Assembly: GCA_037200965.1 (NCBI GenBank)
Contig: JBBCGK010000001.1
Location: 32,001-96,000 of the forward strand
DNA from: a bacterium
GTDB taxonomy: Bacteria; Patescibacteriota; Minisyncoccia; Phycocordibacterales; Phycocordibacteraceae
Direction: 5' to 3'
Length of the DNA stretch: 64,000 nucleotides
The notes beneath the pieces are model-generated. The model was not told the origin of the DNA, searched no databases, and saw nothing but the letters and a program-made list of their open reading frames with translations. The position numbers and the translations under genes were made by a program. Positions 12,516 through 29,086 of the stretch are shown piece by piece (position 1 is the first letter of the stretch; each line of letters starts with the position of its first letter).

Positions 12516-12520
12516 GTGTT

Positions 12521-13417: not shown

Positions 13418-13737
13418 TTTTGAGGCGGAAACTGCTCGACAAGAGCTGCGGGCAAGCGTTCGACCAACTCCTTCCGTACCAAAAGCGCATCTTCATCACC
13501 GCGCGAATCAACGCCAAGCGTAATGCTCGTGCCGAAGCAGTGCACGCCACGCTGATTTATGCAGACGAATCCTGCGGCGAGCGCTAATGCTGGCGACTCG
13601 ACCACGCTGCTGTGCAATATTTCACTGTCGAACACGAGAGCTTTCCCTGCGGTAGTGACGACGTACTTCATGGGGATGCGTCCAGCGATGAAGTCCTCCC
13701 ATTCTTTTGTTTTTGATGTGTCGTATTCCATAGTCAT
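13414..13737 (-). CDS. hypothetical protein (107 aa), island operon
   Basis: Overlaps the integrase start and the upstream gene's stop by 4 nt each (coupled). No recognisable motif. Confidence 0.4.
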   Translation of the reverse strand: MTMEYDTSKTKEWEDFIAGRIPMKYVVTTAGKALVFDSEILHSSVVESPALALAAGFVCINQRGVHCFGTSITLGVDSRGDEDALLVRKELVERLPAALVEQFPPQK

Positions 13738-14000
13738 TTCTTGGGTAGCTTGCTATCGAGGTACAAGCCGGTGAGTCCTACGAGAGCAATGATGAGCGCC
13801 GCAAGCCATTCTTGGTCGAATCCCGATAGAAGCTCATCGAGATGCAGCCAGAGGAAGACAATCGCTCCGATGATGAACAGTGCTTTGCCCGTGTTCCAAA
13901 CTTCTCGCCAGGTTATCTTCGACCTTGTAGGGATACCGGCATCGGCCGTATTTTCCGCTAGCTTTTGCGTCCGTTTTCCAATGTGATTTTCGTTGCTCAT
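13734..14000 (-). CDS. small membrane protein (2 TM), hypothetical
   Basis: 88 aa. Hydrophobic segments LFIIGAIVFLWL and LAALIIALVGLTGLYL. Confidence 0.4.
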   Translation of the reverse strand: MSNENHIGKRTQKLAENTADAGIPTRSKITWREVWNTGKALFIIGAIVFLWLHLDELLSGFDQEWLAALIIALVGLTGLYLDSKLPKK

Positions 14001-14188
14001 AAAATATTTTTGCTATTGCTGATAAATGCTTCGTACTCCTCACGTCGAATGAGCCATTTATTTCCAATGCGAAAGAAGCCTGGGATTTTTCCGGCTTCAA
14101 TCCATCGAAGTACCGTTGCGCGCGATACGTTCAAATCGGCAGCGACTTCAGATACATTTATCGTTTTACTTTGGATTTCTTCGCTCAT
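13997..14188 (-). CDS. excisionase/AlpA-family HTH DNA-binding protein
   Basis: 63 aa. LNVSRATVLRWIEAGKIPGFFRIGNKWLIRREE is a classic Xis/MerR-like winged-helix. First gene of the recombinase operon. Confidence 0.6.
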   Translation of the reverse strand: MSEEIQSKTINVSEVAADLNVSRATVLRWIEAGKIPGFFRIGNKWLIRREEYEAFISNSKNIL

Positions 14189-14245
14189 AACATTTAGTAG
14201 ATATTTACTTCGATACGATGATTCGTTTGTACGTGTTTGTTATCC

Positions 14246-14275
14246 ACTTGACCTGCAACACGCACTTGGTATGAT
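14246..14275 (+). promoter_or_regulatory. sigma70-like promoter TTGACC-16 nt-TATGAT
   Basis: TTGACCTGCAACACGCACTTGGTATGAT. It faces away from the excisionase gene. A short hairpin-T terminator lies about 70 nt downstream (14346-14365). Confidence 0.35.
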
Positions 14276-14593
14276 TTACTTGTAGTCGGATGCTGCTATT
14301 TGCATCATTTGAACGGCTGCTAATATCTATTTAGTGCCATTGCCCCGTGAGGGGTCTTTTTCGTTCTAGGCTTTCCATGTTGCTGCTCTGTTTCTTTCCA
14401 CGGGTATGGCACCTCACTTCCTCTCAATGACCTCTGCAAGTGGTGCATGGGTATGCAAGTGTCATAAAGAATGAACTCGCAGGGGTGTCATCTACTCCAT
14501 GCCCGCCGGATTCTGTGAAAACAAAAATCCGGTGGTGGTAGTTGTCGGTTTGTCCCTCGCACTGTGGGCGGGGACACCCTCACCATGTGGAAG

Positions 14594-14857
14594 TTATTTT
14601 GTCGAAACTTCCTTCTTGGGATTCAGGTAGCCCTCGACAATTTCATCAAGCAGCTCTGACATTGCCATTTCTTCTTCTGCTGCTCGCAGCTTCAACTTTT
14701 GTGCGTTTGATACTGACATACGAACTTGCCGTGTAATGCGCTTTTTACGTGCTTGCCAGCCACGCTTCATCGCATTACTCATCTGCTGCTGATAGTGCTG
14801 GTGCATTGCATCCTCTATTTGCTTCGTGAAATCTATTTTTTGTACCTTTGTCGACAT
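14594..14857 (-). CDS. ribbon-helix-helix-like small DNA-binding protein, hypothetical
   Basis: 87 aa. KKRITRQVRMSVSNAQKLKLRAAEEEMAMSELLDEIVEGYL fits a beta-strand plus two-helix RHH pattern. Confidence 0.35.
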   Translation of the reverse strand: MSTKVQKIDFTKQIEDAMHQHYQQQMSNAMKRGWQARKKRITRQVRMSVSNAQKLKLRAAEEEMAMSELLDEIVEGYLNPKKEVSTK

Positions 14858-15177
14858 AGATTAGTTATTACGACTCTTATATCCTTCATCTCCCCGAAGA
14901 TGCCGGAATCTGAAACCTAGTAATGAACTCATAGCATCCGTCCAAACCTTCAATCAGTCGGGCTTTCACCTTCAGCATCGCCTCATCACGGCGACACTTT
15001 CCCGAACGTTTGTCTGACAAGGCTAGACGGCCAGTTATCGTTTGATGTGCAGGTGAAGTCCCCCGTCGCAGAGTCGTCAGGCGGAGCGGGGACTGGTATC
15101 TGCACACCAATCCGATTATTCGGCCGGTTTTTTATCGAGGACTCGCCGACGACCTCGTGCTTTGAGCTTGTAGAGAG

Positions 15178-15390
15178 CTACGCCTGCATTTCGGCTGGCG
15201 CGGGCAGCGTACTCACAAAGGGTGATGGCATTGCCTTGTCCTTTGCAGATACGAGACCTTTCTTTTGCCAACTATCAAATGCGAGATTTGCAGCGATGTA
15301 GAGTTCATCACGGACAGCCTCAACAGCCTCATCGGAGAGGAGGTTTGCTTCGTTGCCTAGAACTTTTTTGCATTGCGCGATGCTCAACAT
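15178..15390 (-). CDS. hypothetical small protein (70 aa)
   Basis: ORF only. Sits in an AT-rich island intergenic region. Confidence 0.2.
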   Translation of the reverse strand: MLSIAQCKKVLGNEANLLSDEAVEAVRDELYIAANLAFDSWQKKGLVSAKDKAMPSPFVSTLPAPAEMQA

Positions 15391-15767
15391 AAGGGTTGGC
15401 GTCGGCGCGTTGTGAGCAGTTTCTAATTTGTGGAGCTGTTCAAAAGAAAAGACCCGCAGAAGAATCAGAAAACCACTGTGTAAACAGTGTCTTACTAGTT
15501 CCTATGCGGGGCGGAGTTGGTGCCTGGCTATCGAGAAGTCTCGATGTGCTCTGCGGCTAAAAAATTTGCCCTTGCCGTATTAGTTGACGTTGATATGCAA
15601 CGTGCTGACTGGGTACAGTTTAGTGCTGTAGACAATGAGACGCAAGCGTTTTTCAACAATGCTTGTGGAGAGCGACCATGTCAATATGACAGTTTAGTCA
15701 ATTTTGTCATAGTTTGATATACTATGACCATCGGCGTGAGGGATTATTATTAGACCGCCGCTTCAAT

Positions 15768-15968
15768 ATGGCTTCAAAGGACAAAAACTACCTGACGATT
15801 CAAGAAGTCGCCAAAAAATTGGAGGAGCGGCACTTCGACATCACCGAGCGAACGGTGTATCGCTATGTCCAAAAAGGAAAGATACGGGCAATCAAAATCG
15901 GCGGCTGGCGTATCGAGAAAAAAGATTTTGAAAAGTTCCTCGAAGAAAGCTCAAACACCAAGAAATAA
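15768..15968 (+). CDS. excisionase-family HTH protein, first gene of the R-M operon (possible controller)
   Basis: MASKDKNYLTIQEVAKKLEERHFDITERTVYRYVQKGKIRAIKIGGWRIEKKDFEKFLEE. Its stop codon lies 4 nt before the mod ATG. The upstream region is palindrome-rich. Confidence 0.55.
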   Translation: MASKDKNYLTIQEVAKKLEERHFDITERTVYRYVQKGKIRAIKIGGWRIEKKDFEKFLEESSNTKK

Positions 15969-15972
15969 TTTT

Positions 15973-17769
15973 ATGAAGAACCAGCCAACAAAAGTAAATC
16001 TCGCCTCCGCAAATCTCTCCGAGGAGAAGCTGTTTGAGTTGCGGCGTATCCTTCCCGAAGCGTTCAGCGAAAACAAAATTGACTGGGAGAAGCTCCGCAC
16101 GGTTCTTGGCGACGCGGTGGATGCTCATATCGAGAAGTTCGGCTTTACCTGGGCGGGCAAGGGCAACGCCATCAAGAATGTTTTGATACCGAGCAAGGCC
16201 ACGCTCAACCCCGCTCCCGACGAGAGTGTGATGTTCGACGAGAGCCAGAATCTTTTTATCGAGGGCGACAACCTCGAAGTCTTGAAGCTTTTGCAAAAGG
16301 CGTACTTTGAGAAGGTGAAGATGATTTATATAGACCCGCCGTACAACACCGGCGGCGACTTCGTGTACAAGGACAACTTTACCGCACCGCTTGATAACTA
16401 CCTCCATCAGACCGGCCAGAAGAACGGCAACGGCGAGCATCTCACGACAAACAAGGAAACCAACGGCCGCTTCCACAGCGATTGGCTCTCAATGATGTAT
16501 CCGCGTCTCAAGCTCGCGTGGAATCTTTTGCGCGACGACGGCGTTATCTTCATCAGCATTGATGATAACGAGGTGCATCATCTCCGCATATTGCTAAATG
16601 AAGTGTTTGGCGAAGAAAACTTTATTGGTGAGTTTATCGTCGTACGTGCAGAAGGGGGTGGTTTAGCACATCAGTATGTGAAAGGACATGATTATCTGCT
16701 TGCATACGCAAAGTCTATTACAGACTTTGAACCACTCCGTCGCCCGAAAGATATTAGAGGCAAAATTATTGAGAAAGACGGCAAGGAATACTGGATAGAA
16801 GAAGACTGGCTCCGCCGAGAGTTCGGTAAGTACGGCACTCTCCTATACGAAGACATTGAGGAAGTGAAGGGGGCTAACAAGAAAGCGGAAATTGACGCTG
16901 GTTTGCAGAGCGGAGAGTATCAACTGATAAAGAAAAATGGCGGCCATATTGTTGGTCGACTTCGCCTAATTGAAGAAGATGGCTCCAAGTTCTACAGCAT
17001 CCTCAAACATCTTTCTGCGAGGGGAAACGATGATTTGCAGGAATTGGAAATGGGCAAACTCTTTGACTTTCCAAAGCCGGTATCTTTGCTGCGCGAACTC
17101 ATTTTGGGAGCCACGTTCTTTAGTAAGAATGACGGCGATATTATTCTCGACTTTTTCGCTGGCTCTGGTACCACGGCTCATGCTGTAATGGCACAAAATG
17201 CGGAAGATGGAGGCAATCGAAAGTGGATTGCTGTTCAACTACCGGAGAAGACCGAGAGCGATAGCGAAGCGTTCAAAGCCGGATACAAAACTATTGCCGA
17301 CCTTACTAAAGAACGTATACGCCGCGCCGCAAAGAAGCTAGAAAATACTGATGGCTTCAAAATCTTCAAGCTCGCAGCATCAAACTACCCCGAGAACGCT
17401 TTTGAGTTCGACCCAGATAAAACAGAAGACGAGAACAAAGCCGCCTTCGAGGACTACTTGAAGCACGCAAAGCGCGCCAAGCTTATTGACGACCTAGACG
17501 AGACGAGCGTCATCTACGAAAACATCGTCAAGGAAGGATTCTCGCTCAACTCCAAGATTCAGGAAGGCGTGCCAGGAAACAACAAGGTCTACACCATCAC
17601 CGACGGCGACCGGCAGTTTTCTATCTGCCTCGACCGTTCGATTGATGACACGACCGTAAAGAACATCACGGAGTGGGCTAAAGGAGCGACCTTTATCTGC
17701 TTCGATAATGCGCTCTCTGACAGCCAGAAAGCAAACCTCGGCCTCCACGTGGAGCTGAAAACGATATAA
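15973..17769 (+). CDS. mod: Type III restriction-modification Mod subunit (N6-adenine DNA methyltransferase)
   Basis: Motif IV IDPPYNTGGDF precedes motif I DFFAGSGTTAHA (beta-class order). ATG at 15973. The track ORF starts earlier in an overlapping frame. Confidence 0.9.
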   Translation: MKNQPTKVNLASANLSEEKLFELRRILPEAFSENKIDWEKLRTVLGDAVDAHIEKFGFTWAGKGNAIKNVLIPSKATLNPAPDESVMFDESQNLFIEGDNLEVLKLLQKAYFEKVKMIYIDPPYNTGGDFVYKDNFTAPLDNYLHQTGQKNGNGEHLTTNKETNGRFHSDWLSMMYPRLKLAWNLLRDDGVIFISIDDNEVHHLRILLNEVFGEENFIGEFIVVRAEGGGLAHQYVKGHDYLLAYAKSITDFEPLRRPKDIRGKIIEKDGKEYWIEEDWLRREFGKYGTLLYEDIEEVKGANKKAEIDAGLQSGEYQLIKKNGGHIVGRLRLIEEDGSKFYSILKHLSARGNDDLQELEMGKLFDFPKPVSLLRELILGATFFSKNDGDIILDFFAGSGTTAHAVMAQNAEDGGNRKWIAVQLPEKTESDSEAFKAGYKTIADLTKERIRRAAKKLENTDGFKIFKLAASNYPENAFEFDPDKTEDENKAAFEDYLKHAKRAKLIDDLDETSVIYENIVKEGFSLNSKIQEGVPGNNKVYTITDGDRQFSICLDRSIDDTTVKNITEWAKGATFICFDNALSDSQKANLGLHVELKTI

Positions 17770-17771
17770 CT

Positions 17772-20402
17772 ATGAAGTTCAAGTTTGACGCAAACCAAGA
17801 TTTTCAAATAAACGCAGTCAACGCCATCGTTGGCGTCTTTGAAGGTCAGCCGAAGCGTCAAAGTGTGGTAGTAAATGTGCCCGCACTTTCCGTTTCCGGC
17901 TCATTGCCGCTCCAAACTACATACGGCATCTATCCGAACGAGCTGACGCTTTCCGACGAGGAGGTGTTTGCCAACGTCTGGAAGATTCAAGAGCAAAACA
18001 AAATCGGCAATGGCGGCACGGTTGAGGAGTACGACTTTTCTATCGAGATGGAGACGGGTACGGGTAAGACGTATGTGTACCTTCGTACCGTCTTTGAACT
18101 CAACAAGCAATACGGATGGAAGAAGTTTATCGTTCTCGTGCCGTCCGTCGCCATCCGCGAGGGCGTCATCAAGACGCTCCAAATCACCAAAGACCACTTC
18201 GCCGAGCTGTACGACAACGTGCCGTACCGCTTCTACGAGTACCAGTCCAAGAACATCTCGCAGGTGAAGCGCTTTGCGGAATCCAGCAACCTGGAGATTA
18301 TGGTGATGACGGTAGGTGCGTTCAACAAGGACGCGAACGTGCTCTATGCCGCCCGCGACCAGATGCAGGGCGAGCAGCCTATCAGCTACATCCAGCGCAG
18401 CAACCCCGTCCTCATCCTCGACGAGCCGCAGAATATGGAAGGTGAAGCGACGAAGGAGGCGCTCAAGAACTTCAACGCGCTTGCACGCCTGCGATACTCC
18501 GCGACGCATCGCAATCCGTACAACCTCATGTACCAGCTCACGCCGTTCGATGCGTATCAGCTCGGCCTCGTAAAGAAGATTGAGGTGTATTCCGTTACGG
18601 ATGACGACACCGGCATCTCGCGCCCGTCGCTCAACCTCATCTCCGTTGAATCCGGCAAGGCGCTCAAGGCAAAGTTAGAGGCCATCGTGAAAGATGCCGA
18701 CGGCGCATTGAAGCGCAAGAAGCTCACCGTCAAACAGAACGACGACCTCGCGCAGAAGACCGGCAACGACGTATACGCCGGCTATATCGTGGACGAGCTT
18801 GACGCCGATGCGCCAGACCTCGGGCAGATTGGTAGGATTCGCTTTCGCAACAACGTGGAGATTCGCCAGGGTGAAGGCGTAGCAAACAACAACGAGCAAG
18901 TGATGCGCGAGCAGATTGAGCAGACCATCCGCCGCCACTTCGAGAAACGCAACCAGCTCCGCGATATGGGCATCAAGGTGCTCTCCCTCTTTTTCATAGA
19001 CAAGGTAGACAACTACGTTCAATCAGACGGGTTTATCCGCTCTGCGTTCATAGCCGAGTTCAATCGCCTCAAGAAAGACTATGGCGCTGACGGCATGGAC
19101 GTGGATACCGTCCACAAGGGATATTTCGCCAAGCGCGGCGAGGAGTATTTGGAGCGAGAGTCCAGCATCGCCGAGAACCAGGAAGCATACGAGCTGATTA
19201 TGAAGGACAAGGAGCGCCTGCTTTCCTTCGATGAGCCGACGGAGTTCATCTTCTCGCACTCCGCACTCAAGGAAGGATGGGACAACCCAAACATTTTCAA
19301 TATCTGCACCCTGCGCGAGACCGTTTCAGTCATCCGCAAGCGCCAGGAGATTGGCCGAGGTATGCGCCTCTGCGTCAATCAGGACGGAGAGCGTATTTTC
19401 TTGCGCAGCGTCAACCTGCTCTCCGTGATTGCAAACGAGAGCTATACGGAATACGTCTCATCGCTCCAGGGCGAATACGAGGAGGACGGTATCTACAAGT
19501 CTGCGCCGTTGCCGAACAATGCCAAGCGAAAGACCACGGTGAAGCTCAAGAAAGATTTTGATAAGGACACGGACTTTGCTGGTATCTGGGAACGCATCTC
19601 GAAGAAGACCCGCTATGTCGTGCAGGTTGATAGCGAGCGCGTCATCGAAGCGTCCGCAAAGCAGATTGCGAAGCTCCATCTCGCAAAGCCCAAGATGCGC
19701 GTCGAGCGCGCGGGCGTGAACATCGCGGCCGAAGGCATCACCGCAAACATCGTAGGCACCCGTGCCGAGGATTTGAGCCAGACCAAACGCACCATTGACC
19801 CTATCGAACTCATCAAAAACGAGACCAAGCTGACGCGCCACACGGTCGCGGAGATTTTGGCGAAAGCGGACAATACCGACTCCTTCCTCAAGAATCCCGA
19901 ACGCTTCTGCTTCGAGGCAACGCGCATCATCAAGGCCGAGCTGGTGAAGGATTACGTTTCCCAGATTCGCTATGAGGTACTGCCGGAGCAGTATGACCTC
20001 AAGCAGTTCGAGGACATCCCGAGCTACAAGGACGCGACGCACAAGGTGAACAACTCCATCTACGACGCCATCGTGTATGACTCCGACGTGGAGAAGAACT
20101 TTGCCGTCGCCCTCGATGCCGACGAGCGCGTGAAGCTCTTTATCAAGATGCCCAACTGGTTCAAGGTGAACACGCCTATCGGCGGCTACAATCCCGACTG
20201 GGCAATCGTAACGGCCAAGCGAGACCTCCAGGGCAACGAGGAGAAGGAGCGCGTGTATTTCGTGATTGAGACGAAGGGCGACATCTCCAACCTGCGCGAG
20301 AGCGAGGGACAAAAAATTGCTTCCGCGAAGAAGCACTTTGAAGTCATCGAGGTGAACTACAAGGAGGTCGAGAACTACGGGCAATTTGCTGAACAACTAT
20401 GA
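17772..20402 (+). CDS. res: Type III restriction enzyme Res subunit (SF2 helicase plus C-terminal PD-(D/E)XK endonuclease)
   Basis: Walker A METGTGKTYV, DEAH-like ILDEPQNMEG, and a C-terminal nuclease motif (YNPDWAIV...YFVIETKG). Starts 2 nt after mod. Confidence 0.9.
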   Translation: MKFKFDANQDFQINAVNAIVGVFEGQPKRQSVVVNVPALSVSGSLPLQTTYGIYPNELTLSDEEVFANVWKIQEQNKIGNGGTVEEYDFSIEMETGTGKTYVYLRTVFELNKQYGWKKFIVLVPSVAIREGVIKTLQITKDHFAELYDNVPYRFYEYQSKNISQVKRFAESSNLEIMVMTVGAFNKDANVLYAARDQMQGEQPISYIQRSNPVLILDEPQNMEGEATKEALKNFNALARLRYSATHRNPYNLMYQLTPFDAYQLGLVKKIEVYSVTDDDTGISRPSLNLISVESGKALKAKLEAIVKDADGALKRKKLTVKQNDDLAQKTGNDVYAGYIVDELDADAPDLGQIGRIRFRNNVEIRQGEGVANNNEQVMREQIEQTIRRHFEKRNQLRDMGIKVLSLFFIDKVDNYVQSDGFIRSAFIAEFNRLKKDYGADGMDVDTVHKGYFAKRGEEYLERESSIAENQEAYELIMKDKERLLSFDEPTEFIFSHSALKEGWDNPNIFNICTLRETVSVIRKRQEIGRGMRLCVNQDGERIFLRSVNLLSVIANESYTEYVSSLQGEYEEDGIYKSAPLPNNAKRKTTVKLKKDFDKDTDFAGIWERISKKTRYVVQVDSERVIEASAKQIAKLHLAKPKMRVERAGVNIAAEGITANIVGTRAEDLSQTKRTIDPIELIKNETKLTRHTVAEILAKADNTDSFLKNPERFCFEATRIIKAELVKDYVSQIRYEVLPEQYDLKQFEDIPSYKDATHKVNNSIYDAIVYDSDVEKNFAVALDADERVKLFIKMPNWFKVNTPIGGYNPDWAIVTAKRDLQGNEEKERVYFVIETKGDISNLRESEGQKIASAKKHFEVIEVNYKEVENYGQFAEQL

Positions 20403-23400
20403 ACTTCTATGGACTCTTTATCGGGATAGACAGATATGCCTCTCCAAGTATCAACTGGTTGAGTTGTGCAAAGCGTGATGCAGTAGCACTTCATGCGCTC
20501 TTTACTGACACACTTGGCGGCAGCACGAAACTACTTACAGATGAACAAGCCACGCGCCCTACCATTGAAGCGGAGTTTGCAGAACTGGCTAAATGCAAAG
20601 AGGATGACGTGGTAGTCATAACCTTCTCTGGACACGGTACTACTACGCACGAGTTAGTTGTCCATGATGCGGACAGAAGTAATTTGCCAGGCATGTGCAT
20701 CCCGCTTTCAGTTGTAAGCGAGTGGGTTGCAAAAATACCAGCAAAAAAGTTGCTGTTTATCTTGGATTGCTGCTTTTCTGGCGGCATGGGTGCGAAAGCT
20801 CTCCAGGTTGATGTTGTCTCACGTGATATAACTTCAGCCGATGATTTGCTCAAACAACTTTCTGGAGATGGACGGTTGATTTTGACCGCATCGCTTGCCA
20901 CAGAACCTGCTTGGGAGAACCAAAAGCTCGGCCACGGCTTTCTCACATATCATCTGCTGACAGCAATGCAGGGTACCGAAGAAGTGAAAAAGGCAGGTAA
21001 GATTACTGCGTACCGCTTACTTGAATACGTAACGGAAAGAGTGGTAGATGACGCAAAAAAGATTGGTAAAGAGCAACATCCAACTCTCCGCGGCACGATG
21101 GACGGCTCGTTGACGTTTCCTGTATTTACTCCTGGCACGCTATACGCCGCCGCGTTTCCAGAGAGAACAAAAGCAAAAGTTAGTGCAGATATTCAATCGC
21201 TTGAACCCTATGGATTCCCCGAGACCATACTAAAAGCATGGGCGGGTGCGATACCATCGCTCAACCAGTTGCAGATAGACGCTATCAACGACTTCGGGCT
21301 ACTTGATAGTGAGCACTTGGTTGTTTCCGCACCAACATCCTCTGGTAAGACAATGGTTGGTGAACTTGCTGCCATCAGTGGCGCACTGAAACGTCGGAGA
21401 GCACTTTTCTTATTTCCTTTGAAGGCGCTTGTAAATGACAAGCTGCGCCATTTCAATAGCACATACGGTGCGTTTGGTCTGAAAACCATCAAAGCAACTG
21501 GCGAGAGTACAAGCGATGACATGCTCCCTTTGATGCGTGGCCAGTATGATATTTGCTTGATGACGTATGAGAAGTTTTCTGCGCTCGTTCTAGGCTACCC
21601 GCATATCCTTGAGCAAATCGGAACCATTGTAGTTGATGAGGTGCAGATGATTGCCGATGAATCACGTGGAGTGAATCTTGAGTTTATCCTTACACTATTG
21701 AGGATGCGACGTAGAGAAGGAGCTGAACCGCAGCTCATTGCTCTTTCTGCCGTAATTGGTGATACCAACGGACTGGAGCGATGGCTTGGCGGCCGACTGC
21801 TGCGCAGAACAGAGCGTCCCGTGCCACTTGATGAAGGAATTATCAAAGCCGACGGCAGCTTCCGCTATATCGAGTCTGACACTGGAACGGAGAAGACCGA
21901 TACGTCTTATATTATCCCTGAATCACGCAAAGGTTCGAGCCAAGACTTGATTATCCCTCTAGTGCGAAAATTGGTCGGTGAAGGTAAAAGCGTGATTGTA
22001 TTCCGTGAGACACGGGGTGAAGCGCGCGGCTGCGCCCTCTACCTCGCAAGCTCTCTTGGATTGCCGGCCGCACAAGTTGCCCTCGATACATTGCCGAATA
22101 GCGACCCGTCCATCTCATCCAACAAGTTGCGAGAGGCACTTGGAGGCGGTATCGCTTTTCATATATCGGATTTGGATACCGAGGAGCGTCTTGTTGTAGA
22201 GGAACAATTTAGAGCCAGACCTACAGCGCTCAAAGTGATAGCCGCGACCACGACTCTTGCAATGGGAGTGAACACCCCTGCGGAGGCGGTTATCATTGCC
22301 GGTCTCACACATCCAGGAGACCATCCGTATTCAGTTGCAGAGTACAAAAACATCATCGGTCGTGCTGGACGACTTGGCTTCTCGCAGCGTGGCACTTCCT
22401 ACGTTGTCGCAATGAATGGTAGCGATGAACACCACATTTGGAATAGCTACGTTCTTGCATCCCCAGAAGACCTGAACTCCCGCTTTTTGGCAGACCATAC
22501 AGACCCGCGCACATTGATTGTGAGAGTTTTGATAGCTGCTGGTCGTGCGGGTTTGCCAGCACAGCAGATAGTTGAGTTCTTGGAGGAGAGCTTTGGCGTG
22601 TTCCAGCAGAAAGCAATAAACGCTAGCTGGAAATGGGATGAGCAACAGCTTCTGCAAGCTCTCGCTGACTTGAATGCGCACGGATTGGTTGAGAAGGATA
22701 AGGATGATGTATACCACCTCACAGAACTCGGAAAGCTGGCGGGTGTTTCTGGCGTTGAGGTGGAGTCAGTCATTCGAGCTGTGAACGCTTTAAGCGGTCT
22801 GCCGACCACAGACATCAACGACCCTGCACTCATTACGCTCTCGCAAGCAACCGCGGAGCTTGACCAGGTATTATTCCCGATGAATAAGAAAAGCACGCAA
22901 AAAGAACCGCAGGCATGGGCTACTGAAATACGAAATCAAAATGTCCCTACTCAAATAACACAGGAACTTGGGCGCAACACCTCGGATACAACGCAACAAA
23001 CATTGCGCGCTAAAAAAGCAGTAGCAAGTCTACTTTGGATAACTGACCGGCCGCTGAATGAAGTAGAGACAACTATGACACAGTTTGGCGGTGGGCTAGA
23101 TGGTGCCGCTGGTGCAATTCGTGGTGTTGCTGCACGAACGTGTGATGTGCTGCCTACGATTGCTCGCATTGCCGAACTGCTGAATCCTGGTTTTGATTTG
23201 AGCAATCGAGTATCACGACTGTTGATACGGCTTGAGATTGGCGTACCGGCCGCTGGTGTTGAACTCGGCTCTCGCATCGGCAGAATACTTACTCGTGGTG
23301 ATTATCTCAACCTTCTCAAAGCAGGCATCTCTACTGCTGAACAATTTGAGACAGCAGACGAGAAAGTCCTTTTGTCGTGCCTCGGAGACAGCACCGATAA

Positions 23401-23491
23401 ACTTGAACAAGCAAAGCTCGCATTAGAAAACACCTCACAGGAAGAACCTGCTCCGATGATGCCACCGATTTTACCAGCCTATGAAGGATAA
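20399..23491 (+). CDS. caspase-like peptidase C14 domain fused to a Hel308/Ski2-like DExH helicase (1030 aa)
   Basis: The N-terminal ~240 aa has a caspase fold, with the His in VVITFSGHG (H79) and the Cys in LFILDCCFSGG (C124/125). SF2 helicase motifs follow: I APTSSGKT, Ia FPLKALVNDK, II VVDEVQMIAD, III SAV, VI IGRAGRLG. The C-terminus has winged-helix and HhH-like regions (Hel308 domains 4-5). The ATG overlaps the res stop (ATGA). Confidence 0.8.
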   Translation: MNFYGLFIGIDRYASPSINWLSCAKRDAVALHALFTDTLGGSTKLLTDEQATRPTIEAEFAELAKCKEDDVVVITFSGHGTTTHELVVHDADRSNLPGMCIPLSVVSEWVAKIPAKKLLFILDCCFSGGMGAKALQVDVVSRDITSADDLLKQLSGDGRLILTASLATEPAWENQKLGHGFLTYHLLTAMQGTEEVKKAGKITAYRLLEYVTERVVDDAKKIGKEQHPTLRGTMDGSLTFPVFTPGTLYAAAFPERTKAKVSADIQSLEPYGFPETILKAWAGAIPSLNQLQIDAINDFGLLDSEHLVVSAPTSSGKTMVGELAAISGALKRRRALFLFPLKALVNDKLRHFNSTYGAFGLKTIKATGESTSDDMLPLMRGQYDICLMTYEKFSALVLGYPHILEQIGTIVVDEVQMIADESRGVNLEFILTLLRMRRREGAEPQLIALSAVIGDTNGLERWLGGRLLRRTERPVPLDEGIIKADGSFRYIESDTGTEKTDTSYIIPESRKGSSQDLIIPLVRKLVGEGKSVIVFRETRGEARGCALYLASSLGLPAAQVALDTLPNSDPSISSNKLREALGGGIAFHISDLDTEERLVVEEQFRARPTALKVIAATTTLAMGVNTPAEAVIIAGLTHPGDHPYSVAEYKNIIGRAGRLGFSQRGTSYVVAMNGSDEHHIWNSYVLASPEDLNSRFLADHTDPRTLIVRVLIAAGRAGLPAQQIVEFLEESFGVFQQKAINASWKWDEQQLLQALADLNAHGLVEKDKDDVYHLTELGKLAGVSGVEVESVIRAVNALSGLPTTDINDPALITLSQATAELDQVLFPMNKKSTQKEPQAWATEIRNQNVPTQITQELGRNTSDTTQQTLRAKKAVASLLWITDRPLNEVETTMTQFGGGLDGAAGAIRGVAARTCDVLPTIARIAELLNPGFDLSNRVSRLLIRLEIGVPAAGVELGSRIGRILTRGDYLNLLKAGISTAEQFETADEKVLLSCLGDSTDKLEQAKLALENTSQEEPAPMMPPILPAYEG

Positions 23492-24320
23492 AAATATGAT
23501 GAAAAAACGAACAGCAGTAATACTCATCGTCGTCGCTATCGTGGCAACATACGCTGTCATCATGTGGGCGTATTACGGAGACCCTTCATGGTCTAGCAGC
23601 AGCGACACCGCAAGCAGCACCGAGATACCGGCAGACTGCAACGTGCTCGCGTTCAACCTCAACGGAGAGATAGCAACATACCTGCCGCAAGATAGTATCA
23701 GTGAGACCGATTCCGTCTCATCGGCCGATATTCTCGATGGTCTCAAGCTGGCGAAGGAGAACCCGCAAATAAAGGCGGTGCTGCTTTCGGTTGATTCCGG
23801 CGGCGGGAGCGTCGTAGCCGGTGAGGAGATAGCCAACGGCTTCAAGGCGCTCGGCAAGCCCTCTGCGGCGGTTATCCGCGACCTGGGAGCTTCTGCCGCA
23901 TACTGGGCGGCTACCGGCGCAGGCAGGATATTTGCCTCGAAGGTGTCGGATGTGGGTAGTATCGGCATCACCGCCTCATACCTCGACAATACCGTTGCGA
24001 ACGCAAAGGACGGTCTCACGCCCGTGGCAATCGTCTCTGCGCCGTATAAGAACGAGGGCGACCCCGACTTTCCGCTCACGGCAGCAGGCAAGGCGGACAT
24101 ACTCGCATCTATCAAGAAAGACCATGAGGTTTTCGTGGACGAAGTTGCAGCAAACCGGAAGCTCGACCGCAGCAAGGTAGCAGCGCTTGCAGATGGCCGA
24201 ACGTATGTTGGCACCGACGCCGTGGACAACGGACTGATTGACGGCATCGGCAGCATTCCCGAAGCGACCGACTATCTTACTCAACAGATTGGTGAGTCTG
24301 CGCAGGTGTGCTGGTACTAA
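23481..24320 (+). CDS. membrane-anchored S49 family serine peptidase (SppA-like, ClpP fold)
   Basis: N-terminal TM (TAVILIVVAIVATYAVIMWAYY). S49 core LLSVDSGGGSVVAGEEI, catalytic Ser in DLGASAAYWAATGA and a Lys region downstream. The start overlaps the upstream gene's stop by 11 nt. Confidence 0.75.
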   Translation: MKDKNMMKKRTAVILIVVAIVATYAVIMWAYYGDPSWSSSSDTASSTEIPADCNVLAFNLNGEIATYLPQDSISETDSVSSADILDGLKLAKENPQIKAVLLSVDSGGGSVVAGEEIANGFKALGKPSAAVIRDLGASAAYWAATGAGRIFASKVSDVGSIGITASYLDNTVANAKDGLTPVAIVSAPYKNEGDPDFPLTAAGKADILASIKKDHEVFVDEVAANRKLDRSKVAALADGRTYVGTDAVDNGLIDGIGSIPEATDYLTQQIGESAQVCWY

Positions 24321-24972
24321 CCGACGCGCGCAGCATCGTCATATCTTTCTCGCTCATTTTTCCGGCCATCGCCCGATTGAGAATGTTCATCATAAAAGTT
24401 GCCGTCTCGCGCTTGTCGGCGTTTGATTTGATATTCAGAGACTCCTTGCTGTGCGCAGCGCGCATCACATAGTTGAACACGTTTAGCACGTAGTTGCGGC
24501 GCTTCACGATGATGTCATCGTCGTAGCTGCTTTCATCGTCCTGGTCGCGCTTGAGAATATCCATCGCATCGTTGAGCAGCTCGCCTGCAAGGGTGCTCGC
24601 GCCCATCTCTAGCGTCTGCGCATCCGGCACGATGGCGGCATTTTGCTCATCCCGCACCTTGATGATTTGCCGCAGCTCCCGCTGCTCCTGCTTGTAGCCC
24701 TGCTCGGCGAGCAGCTCCGCGTCCCACTTCTTGCGCCACAGGCGATATTGCTTCTCCCAGGGAAAGAAGGTAAACGGGGCGATGGACTTGTTGAAATCGT
24801 TGATGATACGGATGGCGCTGCGGTCTGGTTCCTTGCGGCGCTCGGCCAGGTAGAAGGCGCGGAAGGACGGGAGAAGCTCCCGAAGCTCACCGACCCTCTG
24901 GTATTTGCCGTCAAAGCCCTCGTAGAAGGAGAAGATGGGCTTGGTATCGTTTTGTGGTGTTGATGTGTCCAT
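24277..24972 (-). CDS. hypothetical protein (about 231 aa, start taken at MDTSTPQ)
   Basis: Minus-strand ORF convergent with the S49 gene (43-nt 3' overlap). No recognisable domain. Track ORF 24277..25080. Confidence 0.4.
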   Translation of the reverse strand: MDTSTPQNDTKPIFSFYEGFDGKYQRVGELRELLPSFRAFYLAERRKEPDRSAIRIINDFNKSIAPFTFFPWEKQYRLWRKKWDAELLAEQGYKQEQRELRQIIKVRDEQNAAIVPDAQTLEMGASTLAGELLNDAMDILKRDQDDESSYDDDIIVKRRNYVLNVFNYVMRAAHSKESLNIKSNADKRETATFMMNILNRAMAGKMSEKDMTMLRASVSTSTPAQTHQSVE

Positions 24973-24988
24973 AGGGGCTATAATGAGG

Positions 24989-26554
24989 CTATATCGCAGC
25001 GTGCTGGGGCTGGAGAATGGCTTGCCACTCCTGCAATCCTTCAAGGACTTGGTTCCAGTTCGCGCGGATGTAGTCCACATCGTCGGAGTTGGTGGTAGCT
25101 AACTCCTCAAACAGCCTGGTTTTACTTAGCTTATTTCCGGTTCTATAACCCTCATTTTTGGCATACTCCAATTTGCGCTCAAAGAGGAAGAAAAAGAGCC
25201 GGTGCTGACCATGCACATCGAACAAATCCCAAGTAGATACGGGGCTTTTTAGCATTCCCATACTCTTATCAAGGGCGGTTCTATAAGGTATTCCTAAGTC
25301 CTTGCTGATGAGGGTCGTGCCCTCCATTTTCTCAAGCTCGCGTGCGCTGTCTTCTATCTGAGCTTCATACGTGCGCACTACAGCCTCAGAATTGGCCTTA
25401 CGCGCCATCTCTGACAGCTCCTTGAGCTTCTTCTTCAACTCCTCCTTTCGCTGCTCCTGAAGGTAATCCTGCCATTCAAATATTCTTGACTCCTGTGCCC
25501 ATATTTTATCGAACACGCTAGAAGCAACACCAGTAACGGCAGGCTTGAGTCGGTTGCGTGCGAGCACCTTCTTGAAATCATCCTCGACATCCTTCTTCCG
25601 AAGGGTCTTGAAGTAGAGCTCACACTTCCTGTTCTGGCAGAAGTAGTATTCGTACTTCTTCTTGCTGCGGCTCGTTGATGGAGCTGCTGAAAGATGGCCA
25701 TCACATAGGGCGCAGGTAATGAGGCCACGCAGTGGGAATTGGTCTGAGGTGTCTTTGCGAGGCTTGGCCTTTGCTTCGTCCTTTCCAAGCCGTGCCTGAA
25801 TGCGAAGGAAGGTGTCAGGTTTAATAAGACCTGTGTGCTGTCCGTCTCTTCGAGACACGCCCCAGGGGAGGTATTCAATGAATCCTGCAAAGAAAGGGTC
25901 TTCAAGCATTCCTGAAACATGGTCTAAGCATCGAACAGGCTCCTTACCAGCCCACATACCTCGCTCCACCATAAAGTTGGCGACATCAATCTTTCTTGGC
26001 AAATTGCCGCTCGCGAATCCTTCAAGAGCAGGCTTGATTACCTCGTAGCCAAGCTTATTCGGCTGCGCAACCTTTCCACGGCCAAGAATGAACACCATGT
26101 CATACCCGCGCTTCTTACTGAATGGCCAGTAGCCTGCGAGCAGCCGAGCTTCCATCTTGTTGATTACCTGTTCCGCGTTCTGCTCACGGTCGAGTTCAGC
26201 CTGCGCTGCGAGTACACGCTCAACGAATCTTCCCGAAGGGGAGTCCTCGAAGTTGAAGTTAAGGCAGAGCGGAATAATGTCGCACTCAGTGAACGCTTCC
26301 ATCAGCGCCATATGAAACTTCAGGTCGCGTGCAAAGCGTTTGAGGTCGTCGAAGACAACAACGAACTTCTTATCGCGGTTTGCACGAACATACGCCAATA
26401 ACTCTCGCATGCTTGGACGGCGCATGAAGTCGCCACCTCCTGTGTACGTGTCTATGAAGGACCGGTCATAGGGTATACCAAGCTCTGTAAGTCGAATCTT
26501 GCATCGCGTCTCCTGACTTGATTGGCCACTGCCATTCAGCTCCTGGCTCGAGTT
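24989..26554 (-). pseudogene. large serine recombinase, N-terminally truncated (catalytic serine segment missing)
   Basis: Zinc ribbon CALCDGH...YYFCQNRKC, recombinase domain and coiled coil are present. The frame is open upstream only to a stop at 26555-26557. The upstream part (…SGQSSQETRCKIRLTELGIPYDRSFIDTYTGGGDF) lacks the Y-x-R-x-S-x-x-x-Q nucleophile motif and has no start codon. Confidence 0.6.
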
Positions 26555-26894
26555 TTAAATATTTTAAGGATCTAGACGCCTTTAGAAAATATGCACGGAA
26601 TATTGAAAGCATTGATCGTATTGATAAAGAACTTGAGGATAAAGTAGAAAAAGTAACCAAAGAGATAAAAGCTCGAGTTAAGCAGCAGCATCCTGATATG
26701 TAATTGAATCTTGATATGAATTTTTACGACAAATACATCCTCCCTAAATACCTCAATTGGACGATGAGAAAGAAGGATTTCGCGGTGATGTGATTCACCA
26801 CAATAAACCGTCCAGGGCTGGCACGAAGACGAGCAATCGTCCGAATGCCAGCCCTTTCCCATTTCTGATAGAATATCACTCAACCAACTCCAAT

Positions 26895-27311
26895 ATGACA
26901 ATTGTTGAAAAAGTTAAAGAACTTAACTTGCCGTTCGGACAATACGTCGTTATCGGGAGCGGCCTCTTGGAAGCTCTCGGTATCCGCAAAGCGCAGGATA
27001 TCGATGTTGCCGTCCTGCCCAACCTGTATGACCGGTTGCGCGCGAGCGGGGAATGGGGAGAGGAAGAGAAATACGGCAAGATCTTTCTCGTGCGGGAAGG
27101 CATCGAGATAAGTCCGAAGACTTCCTGGGATGAATACACGACCACTACGGAGGAAGCCATAGCTTCGGCGATGATAATCGACGGCGTTCCCTTTATGAGC
27201 CCTAAGGAGCTTATAAAATTTAAGACGGCTATGGGGCGCGAGCTGGATTTCAGGGATATCGATTTATTGAACGAGTATCTCGAGAAGCATAGGGATCAGG
27301 AGCCTTCATAG
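26895..27311 (+). CDS. minimal nucleotidyltransferase-fold protein (possible antibiotic or TA-type NTase)
   Basis: GQYVVIGSGLLEALGIRKAQDIDVAV is a GS...DxD nucleotidyltransferase motif. It lies just right of an AT-rich segment. Confidence 0.4.
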   Translation: MTIVEKVKELNLPFGQYVVIGSGLLEALGIRKAQDIDVAVLPNLYDRLRASGEWGEEEKYGKIFLVREGIEISPKTSWDEYTTTTEEAIASAMIIDGVPFMSPKELIKFKTAMGRELDFRDIDLLNEYLEKHRDQEPS

Positions 27312-27384
27312 GCGGTCTTTCTCCGAGGAAGAATATGCGGTAGTATTGCCATAGGCAGCAGCGTATTGTGCCAAGGAGGCGCAC

Positions 27385-27627
27385 ATGACTCGTCAAGAAA
27401 CTTCGGAGGCTGAACATGCTCAAGCAAAGAAGGCGAGACGCGAATTCTATCTATACAGCGTCCTGCCGTGCTTGGCGGTATTTGCTCTCTCAACGCTCTT
27501 CGCGCACGTGAACTTGTTTGGCGGACGCGATCTGTGGGGAGTCCTCTCGGTCCTTTCGGGCGCCCTGGGATTGGCGTGGGCGACGTTTCCGCTTTGGTTT
27601 CGTGCCGCATCAGGCATGAGCCGGTAG
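27385..27627 (+). CDS. small membrane protein (2 TM), hypothetical
   Basis: Strong RBS AAGGAGG 7 nt upstream. Hydrophobic helices. Confidence 0.4.
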   Translation: MTRQETSEAEHAQAKKARREFYLYSVLPCLAVFALSTLFAHVNLFGGRDLWGVLSVLSGALGLAWATFPLWFRAASGMSR

Positions 27628-27636
27628 AAAAGCAGG

Positions 27637-27665
27637 GCCGTGCGGGATATTCCCCGCACGGCCTA
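27637..27665. terminator. hairpin terminator between convergent genes
   Basis: GGCCGTGCGGG-ATATTCC-CCGCACGGCC, a perfect 11-bp stem. Confidence 0.5.
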
Positions 27666-27682
27666 TCGCGTTCGAGCTCCAC

Positions 27683-28801: not shown

Positions 28802-28871
28802 CGGGCCGCCGGGAATCGAACCCGGTCTACATCCACCCCATGGACGCGTACTACCGGTATACTACGGCCCG
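28801..28871 (-). tRNA. tRNA-Pro (anticodon GGG)
   Basis: Reverse-complement cloverleaf: T-arm GGTTCGATTCC, anticodon loop ATGGGGT. Confidence 0.7.
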
Positions 28872-28896
28872 TTTCGTTCGCTGGTCCTGTGTCCTG

Positions 28897-28967: not shown

Positions 28968-28984
28968 ACACGACACACGACCTG

Positions 28985-29057: not shown

Positions 29058-29086
29058 GTTCGGAAGAATATAGCACGAGGAACCGG

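What the first reader, a model, noticed from the sequence alone, without database searches (positions are those of the whole stretch)
20399..23491. 1030-aa protein fusing a caspase (C14) catalytic domain to a complete Hel308/Ski2-like DExH helicase
The N-terminal 240 residues show the caspase His-Cys dyad contexts (VVITFSGHG and LFILDCCFSGG) and the typical start GLFIGIDRY. Residues about 290-700 carry SF2 motifs I, Ia, II (DEVQ), III and VI (IGRAGRLG). The tail has the winged-helix and HhH-like segments of Hel308 domains 4-5. Protease-helicase fusions are unusual. Helicases in defence systems usually partner with nucleases, so a nucleic-acid-sensing helicase coupled to a proteolytic effector would be a distinct mechanism.
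Basis: seen in the sequence. Interest (0 to 1): 0.85.

Follow-up and report, generated by a model that had tools for sequence, protein, structure and literature searches.

The report
Caspase fused to Hel308-type helicase
This gene really does encode one protein joining a caspase-like protease to a complete Hel308-type DNA helicase; it belongs to a widespread, horizontally spread, uncharacterised family that sits in bacterial defence islands and probably works as a one-protein antiviral system in which the helicase senses foreign nucleic acid and switches on the protease.

Summary

The fusion is an old, widespread family. Relatives occur in up to 276 species across more than 15 phyla, with 59-89% identity between phyla, and it is almost absent from viral contigs. 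No partner gene is conserved. Neighbours are integrases plus varied defence genes (R-M, DISARM, pAgo, CBASS-like, TIR). In this window it is translationally coupled to a Type III R-M (Mod, Res) and an S49 peptidase on a tRNA-linked island. That cassette recurs in only a few close relatives, and S49 is not a family-wide partner.

The best reading is a single-protein defence module with a helicase sensor and a caspase effector. The nearest studied analogue is trypsin-fused Hachiman. I found no functional study of this architecture. Verdict: new variant of a known kind.

The parts
20399..23491 (+). Caspase-Hel308 fusion gene (1030 aa plus stop codon)
   Evidence: ORF list and translation; domain hits; an identical protein, P0001, is in public data on a 960-kb MAG contig.
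20414..21094 (+). Caspase/metacaspase-like (C14, clan CD) protease domain, residues 6-232
20633..20635 (+). Codon of the catalytic His79 (SGHG motif)
   Evidence: Invariant in 49/49 homologues and in 60/60 distant cluster representatives; aligns to the SGHG His of T. brucei MCA2.
20765..20773 (+). Codons of D123-C124-C125; C125 is the predicted catalytic Cys, and D123 is the metacaspase-type Asp two residues before it
   Evidence: C125 and D123 are invariant in 49/49 and 60/60 sequences, while C124 is variable; the motif aligns to D-C-C213 of MCA2.
20777..20830 (+). Low-confidence but sequence-conserved loop (residues 127-144) directly after the catalytic Cys, at the position of the caspase L2/intersubunit linker; a candidate autoprocessing or regulatory loop (inferred)
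   Evidence: pLDDT below 50 in both models; G128 and G131 invariant, A132 and K133 at least 90% conserved.
21248..21808 (+). Helicase RecA-like domain 1 (about residues 284-470) with motifs I (GKT 316-318), II (DEVQ 413-416) and III (SAV 450-452)
   Evidence: Pfam DEAD at 291-454; motifs invariant; alignment to Hel308 2va8.
21809..22498 (+). Helicase RecA-like domain 2 (about residues 471-700) with motif VI GRAGR at 654-658
   Evidence: Pfam Helicase_C at 576-660; motif invariant; boundaries are approximate, taken from the Hel308 alignment.
22499..23434 (+). Hel308-type accessory domains (winged helix, ratchet, helix-loop-helix), about residues 701-1012
   Evidence: The NCBIfam PRK02362 alignment runs to residue 1001; Foldseek aligns about 760 columns to whole Hel308/Hjm chains with TM 0.81-0.87.
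23438..23488 (+). Disordered C-terminal tail with the conserved PILPxYE motif (P1023 and Y1028 invariant in A1)
   Evidence: pLDDT below 50 for residues 1014-1030; conservation; P.YE is present in 64/170 fused members and 0/23 unfused relatives; also present in P0122.
15865..17769 (+). Type III R-M methyltransferase (Mod); cassette neighbour, not part of the family-wide core
   Evidence: Pfam N6_N4_Mtase; PADLOC MTase_III E 2e-164.
17772..20402 (+). Type III R-M restriction subunit (Res); its stop overlaps the start of the fusion gene by 4 bases
   Evidence: PADLOC REase_III E 2.5e-240; Pfam ResIII plus RE_endonuc; coordinates.
23481..24320 (+). Membrane-anchored S49 (SppA-type) peptidase; its start overlaps the fusion gene's end by 11 bases; an accessory of this cassette lineage only
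   Evidence: Pfam Peptidase_S49 E 2e-28; NCBIfam SppA_dom; adjacent to the fusion gene only in the window, L094, L095 and L097.

Best explanation
The gene encodes a self-contained, single-polypeptide conflict (antiviral or anti-mobile-element) module. The C-terminal Hel308-type ATP-dependent translocase is the sensor. It loads on nucleic-acid structures produced by an invader or by damage, such as 3'-tailed ssDNA, forks or replication intermediates. DNA binding and ATP turnover then release or activate the N-terminal metacaspase-like protease, by unmasking it, by dimerisation, or by autoprocessing in the 127-144 loop. The protease is predicted to prefer Arg/Lys at P1 because of the metacaspase-type D-x-C motif. 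It cuts host or phage proteins directly, because no dedicated pro-toxin is encoded beside it, and so causes growth arrest or abortive infection, or blocks phage replication.

What is shown: the two domains, their folds, the strict conservation of both catalytic sites, the lack of any conserved partner, the horizontal spread, and the location on mobile and defence islands. What is inferred: the defence role, the ligand, the direction of signalling from helicase to protease, and the substrates.

In this window the module rides in a Mod-Res-CaspHel-S49 cassette on a tRNA-linked island and is probably co-transcribed with the Type III R-M.
For: Both enzymes look active. H79, D123 and C125, together with GKT, DEVQ, SAV and GRAGR, are invariant in 49 homologues. 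The dyad is kept in 60/60 representatives of 50%-identity clusters, down to about 31% helicase identity. The folds are confirmed.

The module is single-gene. Clustering of 809 neighbouring ORFs from 92 loci (63 lineages at under 90% identity) found no partner shared across the family.

The context is mobile and defensive:
- Tyr integrase in 19 loci and serine recombinase in 14.
- Flanking genes hit CapP, E1-E2/Bil-like, REase_III, MTase_II, DrmA/DrmD, pAgo, CD-NTase, MADS, HamA, TIR, SAVED-CHAT and AbiU2-HEPN.
- R-M genes of three different types lie directly upstream on the same strand in three independent lineages.

The distribution is patchy and horizontal. Up to 276 of 185,579 species representatives carry a relative, across CPR, Elusimicrobiota, Cyanobacteria, Bacteroidota, Proteobacteria, Actinobacteria and others, at 50-79% identity.

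There are precedents. In trypsin-HamAB the helicase senses nucleic acid, hydrolyses ATP and frees the protease (10.1101/2025.09.03.673762; PMC12799240). An effector-less caspase from E. coli 27-18K defends against T2, T4 and PhiV-1, and this needs its catalytic Cys (PMC12642450). PADLOC helicase hits are best to HamB (E 1.6e-34) and also include SngC, BrxH and PDC-M23B.

One family member, P0122, keeps the helicase (50% identity) but has an unrelated N-terminal domain, as expected for a sensor with exchangeable effectors.
Against: No experiment bears on this family. Defence is inferred from context, and some copies sit alone among housekeeping genes (L007). Hel308 and PolQ-type helicases are repair enzymes, so a repair role is not excluded. 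The direction of control (helicase activates protease) is borrowed by analogy. Model coordinates and PAE were not available, so I could not test whether the active site is occluded in the full-length model. PADLOC 2.0 has no full-length model for the family, and its matches cover only the RecA core. The Arg/Lys specificity rests on a motif analogy from my own knowledge of metacaspases and was not tested.
Confidence: 0.55

Rival explanations
1. It is a DNA-repair or replication-rescue enzyme. A Hel308-like helicase travels along DNA, and its fused protease removes protein roadblocks or DNA-protein crosslinks, comparable in logic to helicase-assisted SPRTN/Wss1 proteolysis. It would not be an immune system.
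For: The closest solved relatives are the repair helicases Hel308/Hjm and the PolQ helicase domain. No partner or toxin is needed. Some copies lie between housekeeping genes (L007).
Against: Only up to 276 of 185,579 species carry it, and identity between distant phyla is 50-79%, which indicates horizontal transfer and not vertical housekeeping. It is repeatedly next to integrases, recombinases and defence genes. Caspase-fold enzymes are typically site-specific endopeptidases and not bulk degraders (established knowledge of clan CD).
Confidence: 0.12
2. It is an obligatory subunit of a larger multi-gene system in this locus. The Type III R-M, the fusion protein and the S49 peptidase would act together: for example, the helicase acts on restriction products, and the caspase processes or is processed by S49.
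For: Start and stop codons overlap across Mod, Res, CaspHel and S49. The same block recurs in L095 and L097, Mod-Res-CaspHel recurs in L012, and S49 stays adjacent, but upstream, in L094. Other R-M types lie directly upstream in L011 and in L062/L073.
Against: Type III R-M and S49 are absent from the large majority of the 63 lineages. Only 1 of 80 loci with relatives of this S49 carries a CaspHel. The S49 copies in the cassettes are only 52-56% identical, no closer to each other than to S49 genes elsewhere, whereas Res and CaspHel are 75-89% identical. S49 has an N-terminal membrane anchor with a positively charged N-terminus, which suggests an extracytoplasmic catalytic domain. In L012 the slot is filled by an unrelated 229-aa ORF.
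Confidence: 0.1
3. It serves the mobile element and not the host, for example as an addiction or exclusion module, or as a counter-defence factor that proteolyses host immune proteins when the element's DNA is being processed.
For: It is tightly associated with integrases and recombinases and with plasmids. There are 17 full-length copies on plasmids, many of them conjugative. The same island is shared with a CPR bacterium.
Against: Most defence systems show the same association. It is nearly absent from viral contigs (1 true hit in 2.9 million), where counter-defence genes would be expected. Its neighbours are defence genes and not transfer genes.
Confidence: 0.1
4. The caspase domain is a non-catalytic scaffold or regulatory module of an otherwise ordinary helicase.
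Against: His, Cys and the Asp at -2 are conserved in 49/49 and 60/60 sequences across deep divergence. That is not expected for a pseudo-enzyme.
Confidence: 0.03

Closest known systems
Hachiman with fused trypsin-like protease (trypsin-HamAB plus MBL nuclease)
   Same: An SF2 helicase senses nucleic acid and hydrolyses ATP, and this controls a covalently linked protease (10.1101/2025.09.03.673762; PMC12799240). PADLOC's best helicase hits for this protein are HamB models, and the HamB structure 8vx9 matches at E 9e-22.
   Different: Here the protease is a clan-CD caspase and not a trypsin. There is no HamA/DUF1837 and no MBL pro-nuclease partner. Everything is in one polypeptide. The helicase is much closer to Hel308 (E 7e-49, full length) than to HamB.
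Archaeal Hel308/Hjm and the PolQ helicase-like domain (Ski2-like SF2 helicases)
   Same: The same five-domain architecture: two RecA domains, winged helix, ratchet and helix-loop-helix. TM is 0.81-0.87 to Hel308 chains, and sequence E-values reach 7e-49.
   Different: The score is far below the Hel308 equivalog cutoffs (272 against 887; 217 against 1200). Motif II is DExQ instead of DExH. It is bacterial, horizontally mobile, and carries an N-terminal protease of about 250 aa.
Sensor-fused caspase-like proteases of prokaryotic immunity (STAND/Avs-caspase with EACC1, SAVED-CHAT, TPR-CHAT/Craspase, Type IV Thoeris caspase, Canu, gasdermin-activating caspases)
   Different: The sensor is a helicase, not a STAND NTPase, a cyclic-nucleotide receptor or a CRISPR complex. 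No EACC1, gasdermin, MBL or hydrolase substrate gene is linked. The caspase domain forms its own clade, whose nearest relatives are all members or fragments of this fusion family.
Effector-less defensive caspase from E. coli 27-18K (PMC12642450, Discussion and Supplementary Fig. 13)
   Same: [quoted passage not shown]
   Different: The domain architecture of that protein is not given in the accessible text, so I could not tell whether it contains a helicase or is related to this family.
Metacaspase-helicase architectures in the 2012 census of prokaryotic caspase homologues (PMC3501461)
   Same: That survey counted 12 of 671 bacterial metacaspases with helicase domains, so the bare architecture had been listed.
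   Different: It gave no family definition, context analysis, structure or function.

Membership tests
Peptidase family C14 / clan CD (caspase, metacaspase, paracaspase) | Caspase-hemoglobinase fold | tested here: met
Peptidase family C14 / clan CD (caspase, metacaspase, paracaspase) | His-Cys catalytic dyad at the ends of the two central strands | tested here: met
   H79 (SGHG) and C125 (DCC) align to the MCA2 dyad positions, end strands 71-80 and 117-125, and are invariant in 49/49 and 60/60 sequences. A direct 3-D superposition of side chains was not possible because coordinates are not exposed.
Peptidase family C14 / clan CD (caspase, metacaspase, paracaspase) | Score above the Pfam PF00656 gathering threshold | tested here: met
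   51.3 bits against a cutoff of 21.4.
Peptidase family C14 / clan CD (caspase, metacaspase, paracaspase) | Peptidase activity and P1 specificity | not testable with these tools
   Arg/Lys preference is predicted only from the metacaspase-type D-x-C motif (D123 invariant).
Hel308 (Ski2-like SF2 DNA helicase) | Two RecA domains with SF2 motifs I, Ia, II, III and VI | tested here: met
   Pfam DEAD and Helicase_C; the motifs are invariant.
Hel308 (Ski2-like SF2 DNA helicase) | Winged-helix, ratchet and helix-loop-helix domains after the motor | tested here: met
   The NCBIfam PRK02362 alignment covers residues 284-1001, profile positions 20-697 of 739. Foldseek aligns about 760 columns with TM 0.81-0.87 normalised to whole Hel308/Hjm chains.
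Hel308 (Ski2-like SF2 DNA helicase) | Orthology (NCBIfam equivalog cutoffs) and the DExH form of motif II | tested here: not met
   Scores are 272.5 against a cutoff of 887 (PRK02362) and 217 against 1200 (helicase_Hel308). Motif II is DEVQ. It is Hel308-like in architecture but not a Hel308 orthologue.
Hachiman (HamA + HamB) | HamB-type helicase | tested here: inconclusive
   Many HamB models hit at E 1e-34 to 1e-13, but the matches are mainly confined to the RecA core (the longest covers residues 303-665 of 1030). HamB 8vx9 is a weaker match than Hel308, PolQ or Brr2.
Hachiman (HamA + HamB) | Adjacent HamA (DUF1837) nuclease | tested here: not met
   There is none in the window. Only 1 of 110 nearest neighbours across 63 lineages hits HamA, and no neighbour cluster is conserved.
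EACC1-associated caspase systems | Score above the NF047832 cutoff and a linked EACC1 gene | tested here: not met
   The score is 89.1 bits against a cutoff of 140. No small partner ORF is conserved next to the gene. An explicit EACC1 profile was not run.
Type III restriction-modification (for the cassette neighbours) | Mod methyltransferase plus Res helicase-nuclease | tested here: met
   PADLOC MTase_III E 2e-164 and REase_III E 2.5e-240. This applies to the neighbouring genes; the fusion protein itself is not a known Type III component.

The most novel reading that the evidence does not exclude
A Hel308-type DNA translocase directly gates a caspase within one polypeptide. This would make a 'nucleic-acid-activated caspase' that needs no adaptor, second messenger or pro-toxin. 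Proteolysis of host or phage proteins would itself be the immune output, possibly fed by DNA ends that the co-transcribed restriction enzymes create.
Probability: 0.4. Interest if true: 0.8.

Novelty: new variant of a known kind. Interest (0 to 1): 0.62.

Why it matters
Caspase-like proteases are emerging as common outputs of bacterial immunity. The known inputs are STAND NTPases, cyclic-nucleotide sensors, CRISPR complexes and TIR signals. The one studied helicase-gated protease (trypsin-Hachiman) needs a separate pro-nuclease.

A widespread single-gene family joins a complete Hel308-type motor to a conserved, apparently active caspase and has no dedicated substrate gene. If it is a defence system, it would be the simplest known link between nucleic-acid sensing and proteolysis. 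It would also be a compact system for asking what an 'effector-less' caspase cuts, and a possible DNA- or RNA-triggered protease tool. The family is currently annotated only as 'DEAD/DEAH box helicase', so it is invisible to defence-system finders.

Tried and rejected
1. S49 peptidase as a conserved partner or substrate: rejected as a family-wide feature. It is adjacent only in the window, L094, L095 and L097, and only 1 of 80 S49-relative loci has the fusion gene. My first statement that S49 was unique to the window was wrong, and I corrected it.

2. Hachiman membership: no HamA partner.

3. A hidden conserved small partner ORF upstream or downstream: none found.

4. P0122 N-terminal domain as a nucleotidyl cyclase (my guess from its motifs): no Pfam or PDB support. 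Left as unknown.

5. Phage origin: only one true hit among viral contigs.

6. A search with the caspase domain alone for other architectures returned only fragments or members of the same family.

7. Island attachment repeats: no convincing repeat.

8. Promoter and terminator scans: at or only slightly above shuffle background and not informative, so the operon inference rests only on overlapping ORFs.

9. Literature: no paper found for 'caspase-helicase', for Hel308 + anti-phage + caspase, or for PDC-M23.

10. Model coordinates are not exposed, so dyad geometry and the domain interface could not be measured.

11. The architecture of the E. coli 27-18K caspase could not be retrieved because no supplement is held.
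Full report
OBSERVATION. The window carries an uninterrupted ATG-initiated ORF at 20399-23491 (+) of 1030 codons. Pfam finds three domains:
- Peptidase_C14 at residues 6-232 (E 1.6e-13; 51.3 bits against a gathering score of 21.4).
- DEAD at 291-454 (E 9e-23).
- Helicase_C at 576-660 (E 2e-8).

An identical protein (P0001) exists in public data on a 960-kb contig of an unclassified bacterial MAG.

THE CASPASE DOMAIN. I aligned 49 homologues sharing 60-89% identity with the query. H79 (SGHG), D123 and C125 (D-C-C-F-S-G) are invariant, while C124 is not. I then took distant representatives of 50%-identity clusters, recovered with the helicase part alone. Of these, 61 carry an N-terminal extension of more than 200 aa. 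Sixty of the 61 match a caspase-domain HMM, and all 60 keep H79, D123 and C125. Pfam confirms C14 in members whose helicase is only 31-37% identical.

All 50 best Foldseek hits are caspase-fold enzymes. A profile of the domain aligns to T. brucei metacaspase MCA2 with SGHG on SGHG and D-C-C on D-C-C(213). H79 and C125 end strands 71-80 and 117-125, which is the canonical topology.

The D-x-C-x-S-G motif is of the metacaspase/orthocaspase type. From established knowledge of metacaspases, the Asp at -2 lines an acidic S1 pocket, so I predict Arg/Lys specificity. This is an inference.

Residues 127-144, directly after the catalytic Cys, are the only long internal low-confidence stretch, yet they are conserved in sequence (G128, G131, A132, K133). 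This is where caspases carry the L2/intersubunit linker, so the loop is a candidate autoprocessing or regulatory site. This too is an inference.

THE HELICASE. NCBIfam aligns residues 284-1001 to positions 20-697 of the 739-position Hel308-type model PRK02362 (E 7.7e-81). The score lies far below the equivalog cutoff, at 272 against 887. The best PDB sequence matches are, in order:
- Hel308 (E 7e-49 to 9e-43).
- The PolQ helicase domain.
- ASCC3, Brr2 and Slh1.
- HamB 8vx9, only at E 9e-22.

The full-length model (pLDDT 83.7, pTM 0.70) superimposes on whole Hel308/Hjm chains with TM 0.81-0.87 over about 760 columns. All five Hel308 domains are therefore present. Motifs I, II, III and VI are invariant. 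Motif II is DEVQ. The Q is shared by 154 of 170 fused members and by all 23 unfused close relatives. The protein thus belongs to a bacterial DExQ, Hel308-like clade and is not a Hel308 orthologue.

THE FAMILY. More than 120 full-length proteins of about 1030 aa share 59-89% identity with the query. Those that are named come from Elusimicrobiota, Omnitrophota, CPR, Proteobacteria and Acidobacteriota. A scan of one genome per species found 276 stretches encoding relatives. The best 80 are nearly all full-length and come from more than 15 phyla, including cultured Myxococcus, Bradyrhizobium, Afipia, Nitrobacter, Chryseobacterium, Sphingobacterium, Pedobacter, Streptomyces and Lentzea, and Nostoc MAGs.

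Such identity across phyla in about 0.15% of species means horizontal spread. Seventeen plasmids carry full-length copies, all annotated only as 'DEAD/DEAH box helicase'. Only one true hit exists among 2.9 million viral contigs. The nearest relatives of the caspase domain alone are all members or fragments of this same family.

One member, P0122, keeps the helicase (50% identity) and the C-terminal tail. It has an unrelated N-terminal region of about 270 aa with no Pfam or PDB match.

CONTEXT. I clustered 809 ORFs lying within 5 kb of the gene in 92 loci, which represent 63 lineages at under 90% identity. No neighbour is shared across the family. The commonest neighbours are a tyrosine integrase (19 loci, mostly one alphaproteobacterial element) and serine recombinases (14 loci).

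The nearest large neighbours match a wide range of defence proteins:
- CapP, with an HTH gene directly upstream in L001, L009 and L010.
- E1-E2/Bil-like ubiquitin systems.
- Type II and Type III R-M.
- DISARM DrmA and DrmD.
- pAgo, a CD-NTase and MADS.
- One HamA.
- TIR, SAVED-CHAT, an AbiU2-like HEPN, Fic, and a UvrD-M78-PDDEXK protein.

The pattern is that of a stand-alone cargo gene of defence and mobile islands.

R-M genes of three types lie directly upstream on the same strand in three independent lineages:
- Type III in the window clade.
- Eco57I-like Type IIG in L011.
- MmeI-like in L062 and L073.

I did not test whether this exceeds what island co-location alone would give.

THIS LOCUS. 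The gene lies in a low-GC stretch (46-55% against 57-60% outside) that starts at tRNA-Ala (10909-10984). The stretch carries a serine recombinase (10920-12515, -), a tyrosine integrase (12521-13417, -) and a second, apparently N-terminally truncated serine recombinase (24989-26425, -).

Mod (15865-17769), Res (17772-20402), the fusion gene and an S49 peptidase (23481-24320) are packed without intergenic gaps. Mod and Res are 2 bases apart, and the other two junctions overlap by 4 and 11 bases. Consensus promoter and terminator scans were close to shuffle background. Co-transcription is therefore inferred from the packing only.

The same island skeleton occurs in a Buchananbacteria (CPR) MAG, L012: SerRec, TyrInt, Mod, Res, CaspHel and a homologue of the 267-aa ORF. 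There the S49 slot is filled by an unrelated 229-aa ORF with a weak HEPN signal.

THE S49 QUESTION. At first S49 appeared unique to the window. That was wrong. L095 and L097 carry the same Mod-Res-CaspHel-S49 block, and in L094 (fusion protein 89% identical) an S49 gene lies immediately upstream instead.

The link is nevertheless narrow:
- S49 is absent from the other lineages.
- Only 1 of 80 loci with relatives of this S49 has the fusion gene, and 48 of those loci have at least 3.2 kb of flank on one side or more.
- The cassette S49 copies are only 52-56% identical, no closer to each other than to S49 genes elsewhere, whereas Res and CaspHel are 75-89% identical.
- The protein has an N-terminal hydrophobic anchor after a basic N-terminus. 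As in SppA, this suggests a catalytic domain outside the cytoplasm.

S49 is best seen as an accessory of one cassette lineage. I cannot exclude a local functional link.

MECHANISM. The best-supported reading (confidence 0.55) is a one-protein defence module. The Hel308-type motor senses nucleic-acid structures from invaders or damage, and its ATP cycle controls the fused caspase. The caspase then cuts host or phage proteins directly, because no pro-toxin gene is linked.

What is shown: the folds, the conservation of both active sites, the absence of a partner, the mobility, and the defence-island setting. What is inferred: the defence role, the ligand, the direction of control and the targets.

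The analogy rests on two studies. In trypsin-HamAB/MBL, the helicase senses nucleic acid, hydrolyses ATP and releases the protease (10.1101/2025.09.03.673762; PMC12799240). An effector-less E. coli caspase defends in a Cys-dependent way (PMC12642450), but its architecture I could not retrieve.

The rivals are:
- A repair role removing protein roadblocks (0.12).
- An obligatory R-M/S49 multi-gene system (0.10).
- A function serving the mobile element (0.10).
- A non-catalytic caspase domain (0.03).

COMPARISON AND NOVELTY. The protein is a member of family C14/clan CD by fold, dyad and Pfam threshold. It is Hel308-like in architecture but fails the orthologue cutoffs and the DExH motif. It is not Hachiman, because there is no HamA. 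It is not an EACC1-type caspase system, because it scores below the cutoff and has no partner.

A 2012 census listed 12 metacaspases with helicase domains (PMC3501461). I found no paper that defines, places in context or tests this family. PADLOC 2.0 has no full-length model for it. I therefore rate it a new variant of a known kind (sensor-coupled protease effectors), with interest 0.62. It is widespread, single-gene, easy to test, and touches an open question raised in PMC12642450: what do effector-less defensive caspases cut?

Noticed in passing
window 10909-27700: A low-GC island (46-55% against 57-60% outside) starts at tRNA-Ala(TGC). It carries a serine recombinase, a tyrosine integrase and a second serine recombinase that looks N-terminally truncated (its Resolvase domain starts at profile position 48). 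The same skeleton is present in a CPR (Buchananbacteria) MAG, L012, which implies recent inter-phylum transfer. No att repeat was found.
   Followed up: partly
P0122 (protein), residues 1-270: A family member with the same helicase (50% identity) and the same C-terminal PxYE tail carries an unrelated N-terminal domain in place of the caspase. It has no Pfam or PDB sequence match. Motifs such as GDGF and GPGINMTARL reminded me of nucleotidyl cyclases, but this was not confirmed. It would be an effector swap on the same sensor.
   Followed up: partly
window 23438-23488 (residues 1014-1030): The C-terminal tail is predicted disordered but conserved (PILPxYE; P1023 and Y1028 invariant in 49 homologues). 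P.YE is present in 64/170 fused members and in none of 23 unfused relatives. It could be a docking or autoinhibitory peptide.
   Followed up: partly
window 24277-25080 (-): A 267-aa ORF of unknown function lies convergent with S49 and is conserved at 69% identity in L012. Its only signal is a faint Pfam hit to Effector-associated domain 10 (E 0.047), an adaptor domain of NTPase/caspase conflict systems. The hit is too weak to rely on.
   Followed up: partly
L012 13108-13797 (+); L002/L003/L004/L077 13159-13668 (+): In some lineages the slot just downstream of the fusion gene holds small HEPN-like ORFs. In L012 it is a 229-aa ORF with an RNHVVH motif and a weak RiboL-PSP-HEPN hit (E 0.012). In the Jorgensenbacteria loci it is a 169-aa AbiU2-like HEPN. 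The two are unrelated in sequence.
   Followed up: partly
L001 8767-9956; L009 4713-5898; L010 6118-6861: An HTH gene plus an M78 peptidase (PADLOC CapP, E 7e-59) lies directly upstream of the fusion gene and divergent from a Bil-like ubiquitin operon (Multi_ubiq, E2, E1-JAB, BubE). These DNA-damage-responsive regulators might control either system.
   Followed up: no
L027, L028, L034, L068 (Nostoc/Komarekiella), e.g. L028 6432-8942 (+): A second, separate caspase-domain protein of 836 aa lies about 300 bp upstream of the fusion gene in cyanobacterial loci, and a conserved 967-aa protein of unknown function lies downstream.
   Followed up: no
proteins P0210-P0263: The closest helicase relatives without the caspase are proteins of 900-1070 aa that start with the helicase, keep the DExQ motif and the archaeal-helicase domain 4, and carry C-terminal extensions of about 200 aa with unknown function (one has a GHKL/HATPase_c domain). 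Their context was not examined.
   Followed up: no
window 28801-29423 and 31739-31812: A tRNA cluster lies at the right side of the island: two tandem tRNA-Pro genes (GGG and CGG, 87% identical), tRNA-Ala(CGC), tRNA-Val(CAC) and, further on, tRNA-Ala(GGC).
   Followed up: no
L095 9919-10282; L011 10108-10498: Pairs of small overlapping ORFs (60-73 aa) follow the fusion gene or the S49 gene on the same strand in two close lineages. I did not test whether they are homologous or real genes.
   Followed up: no
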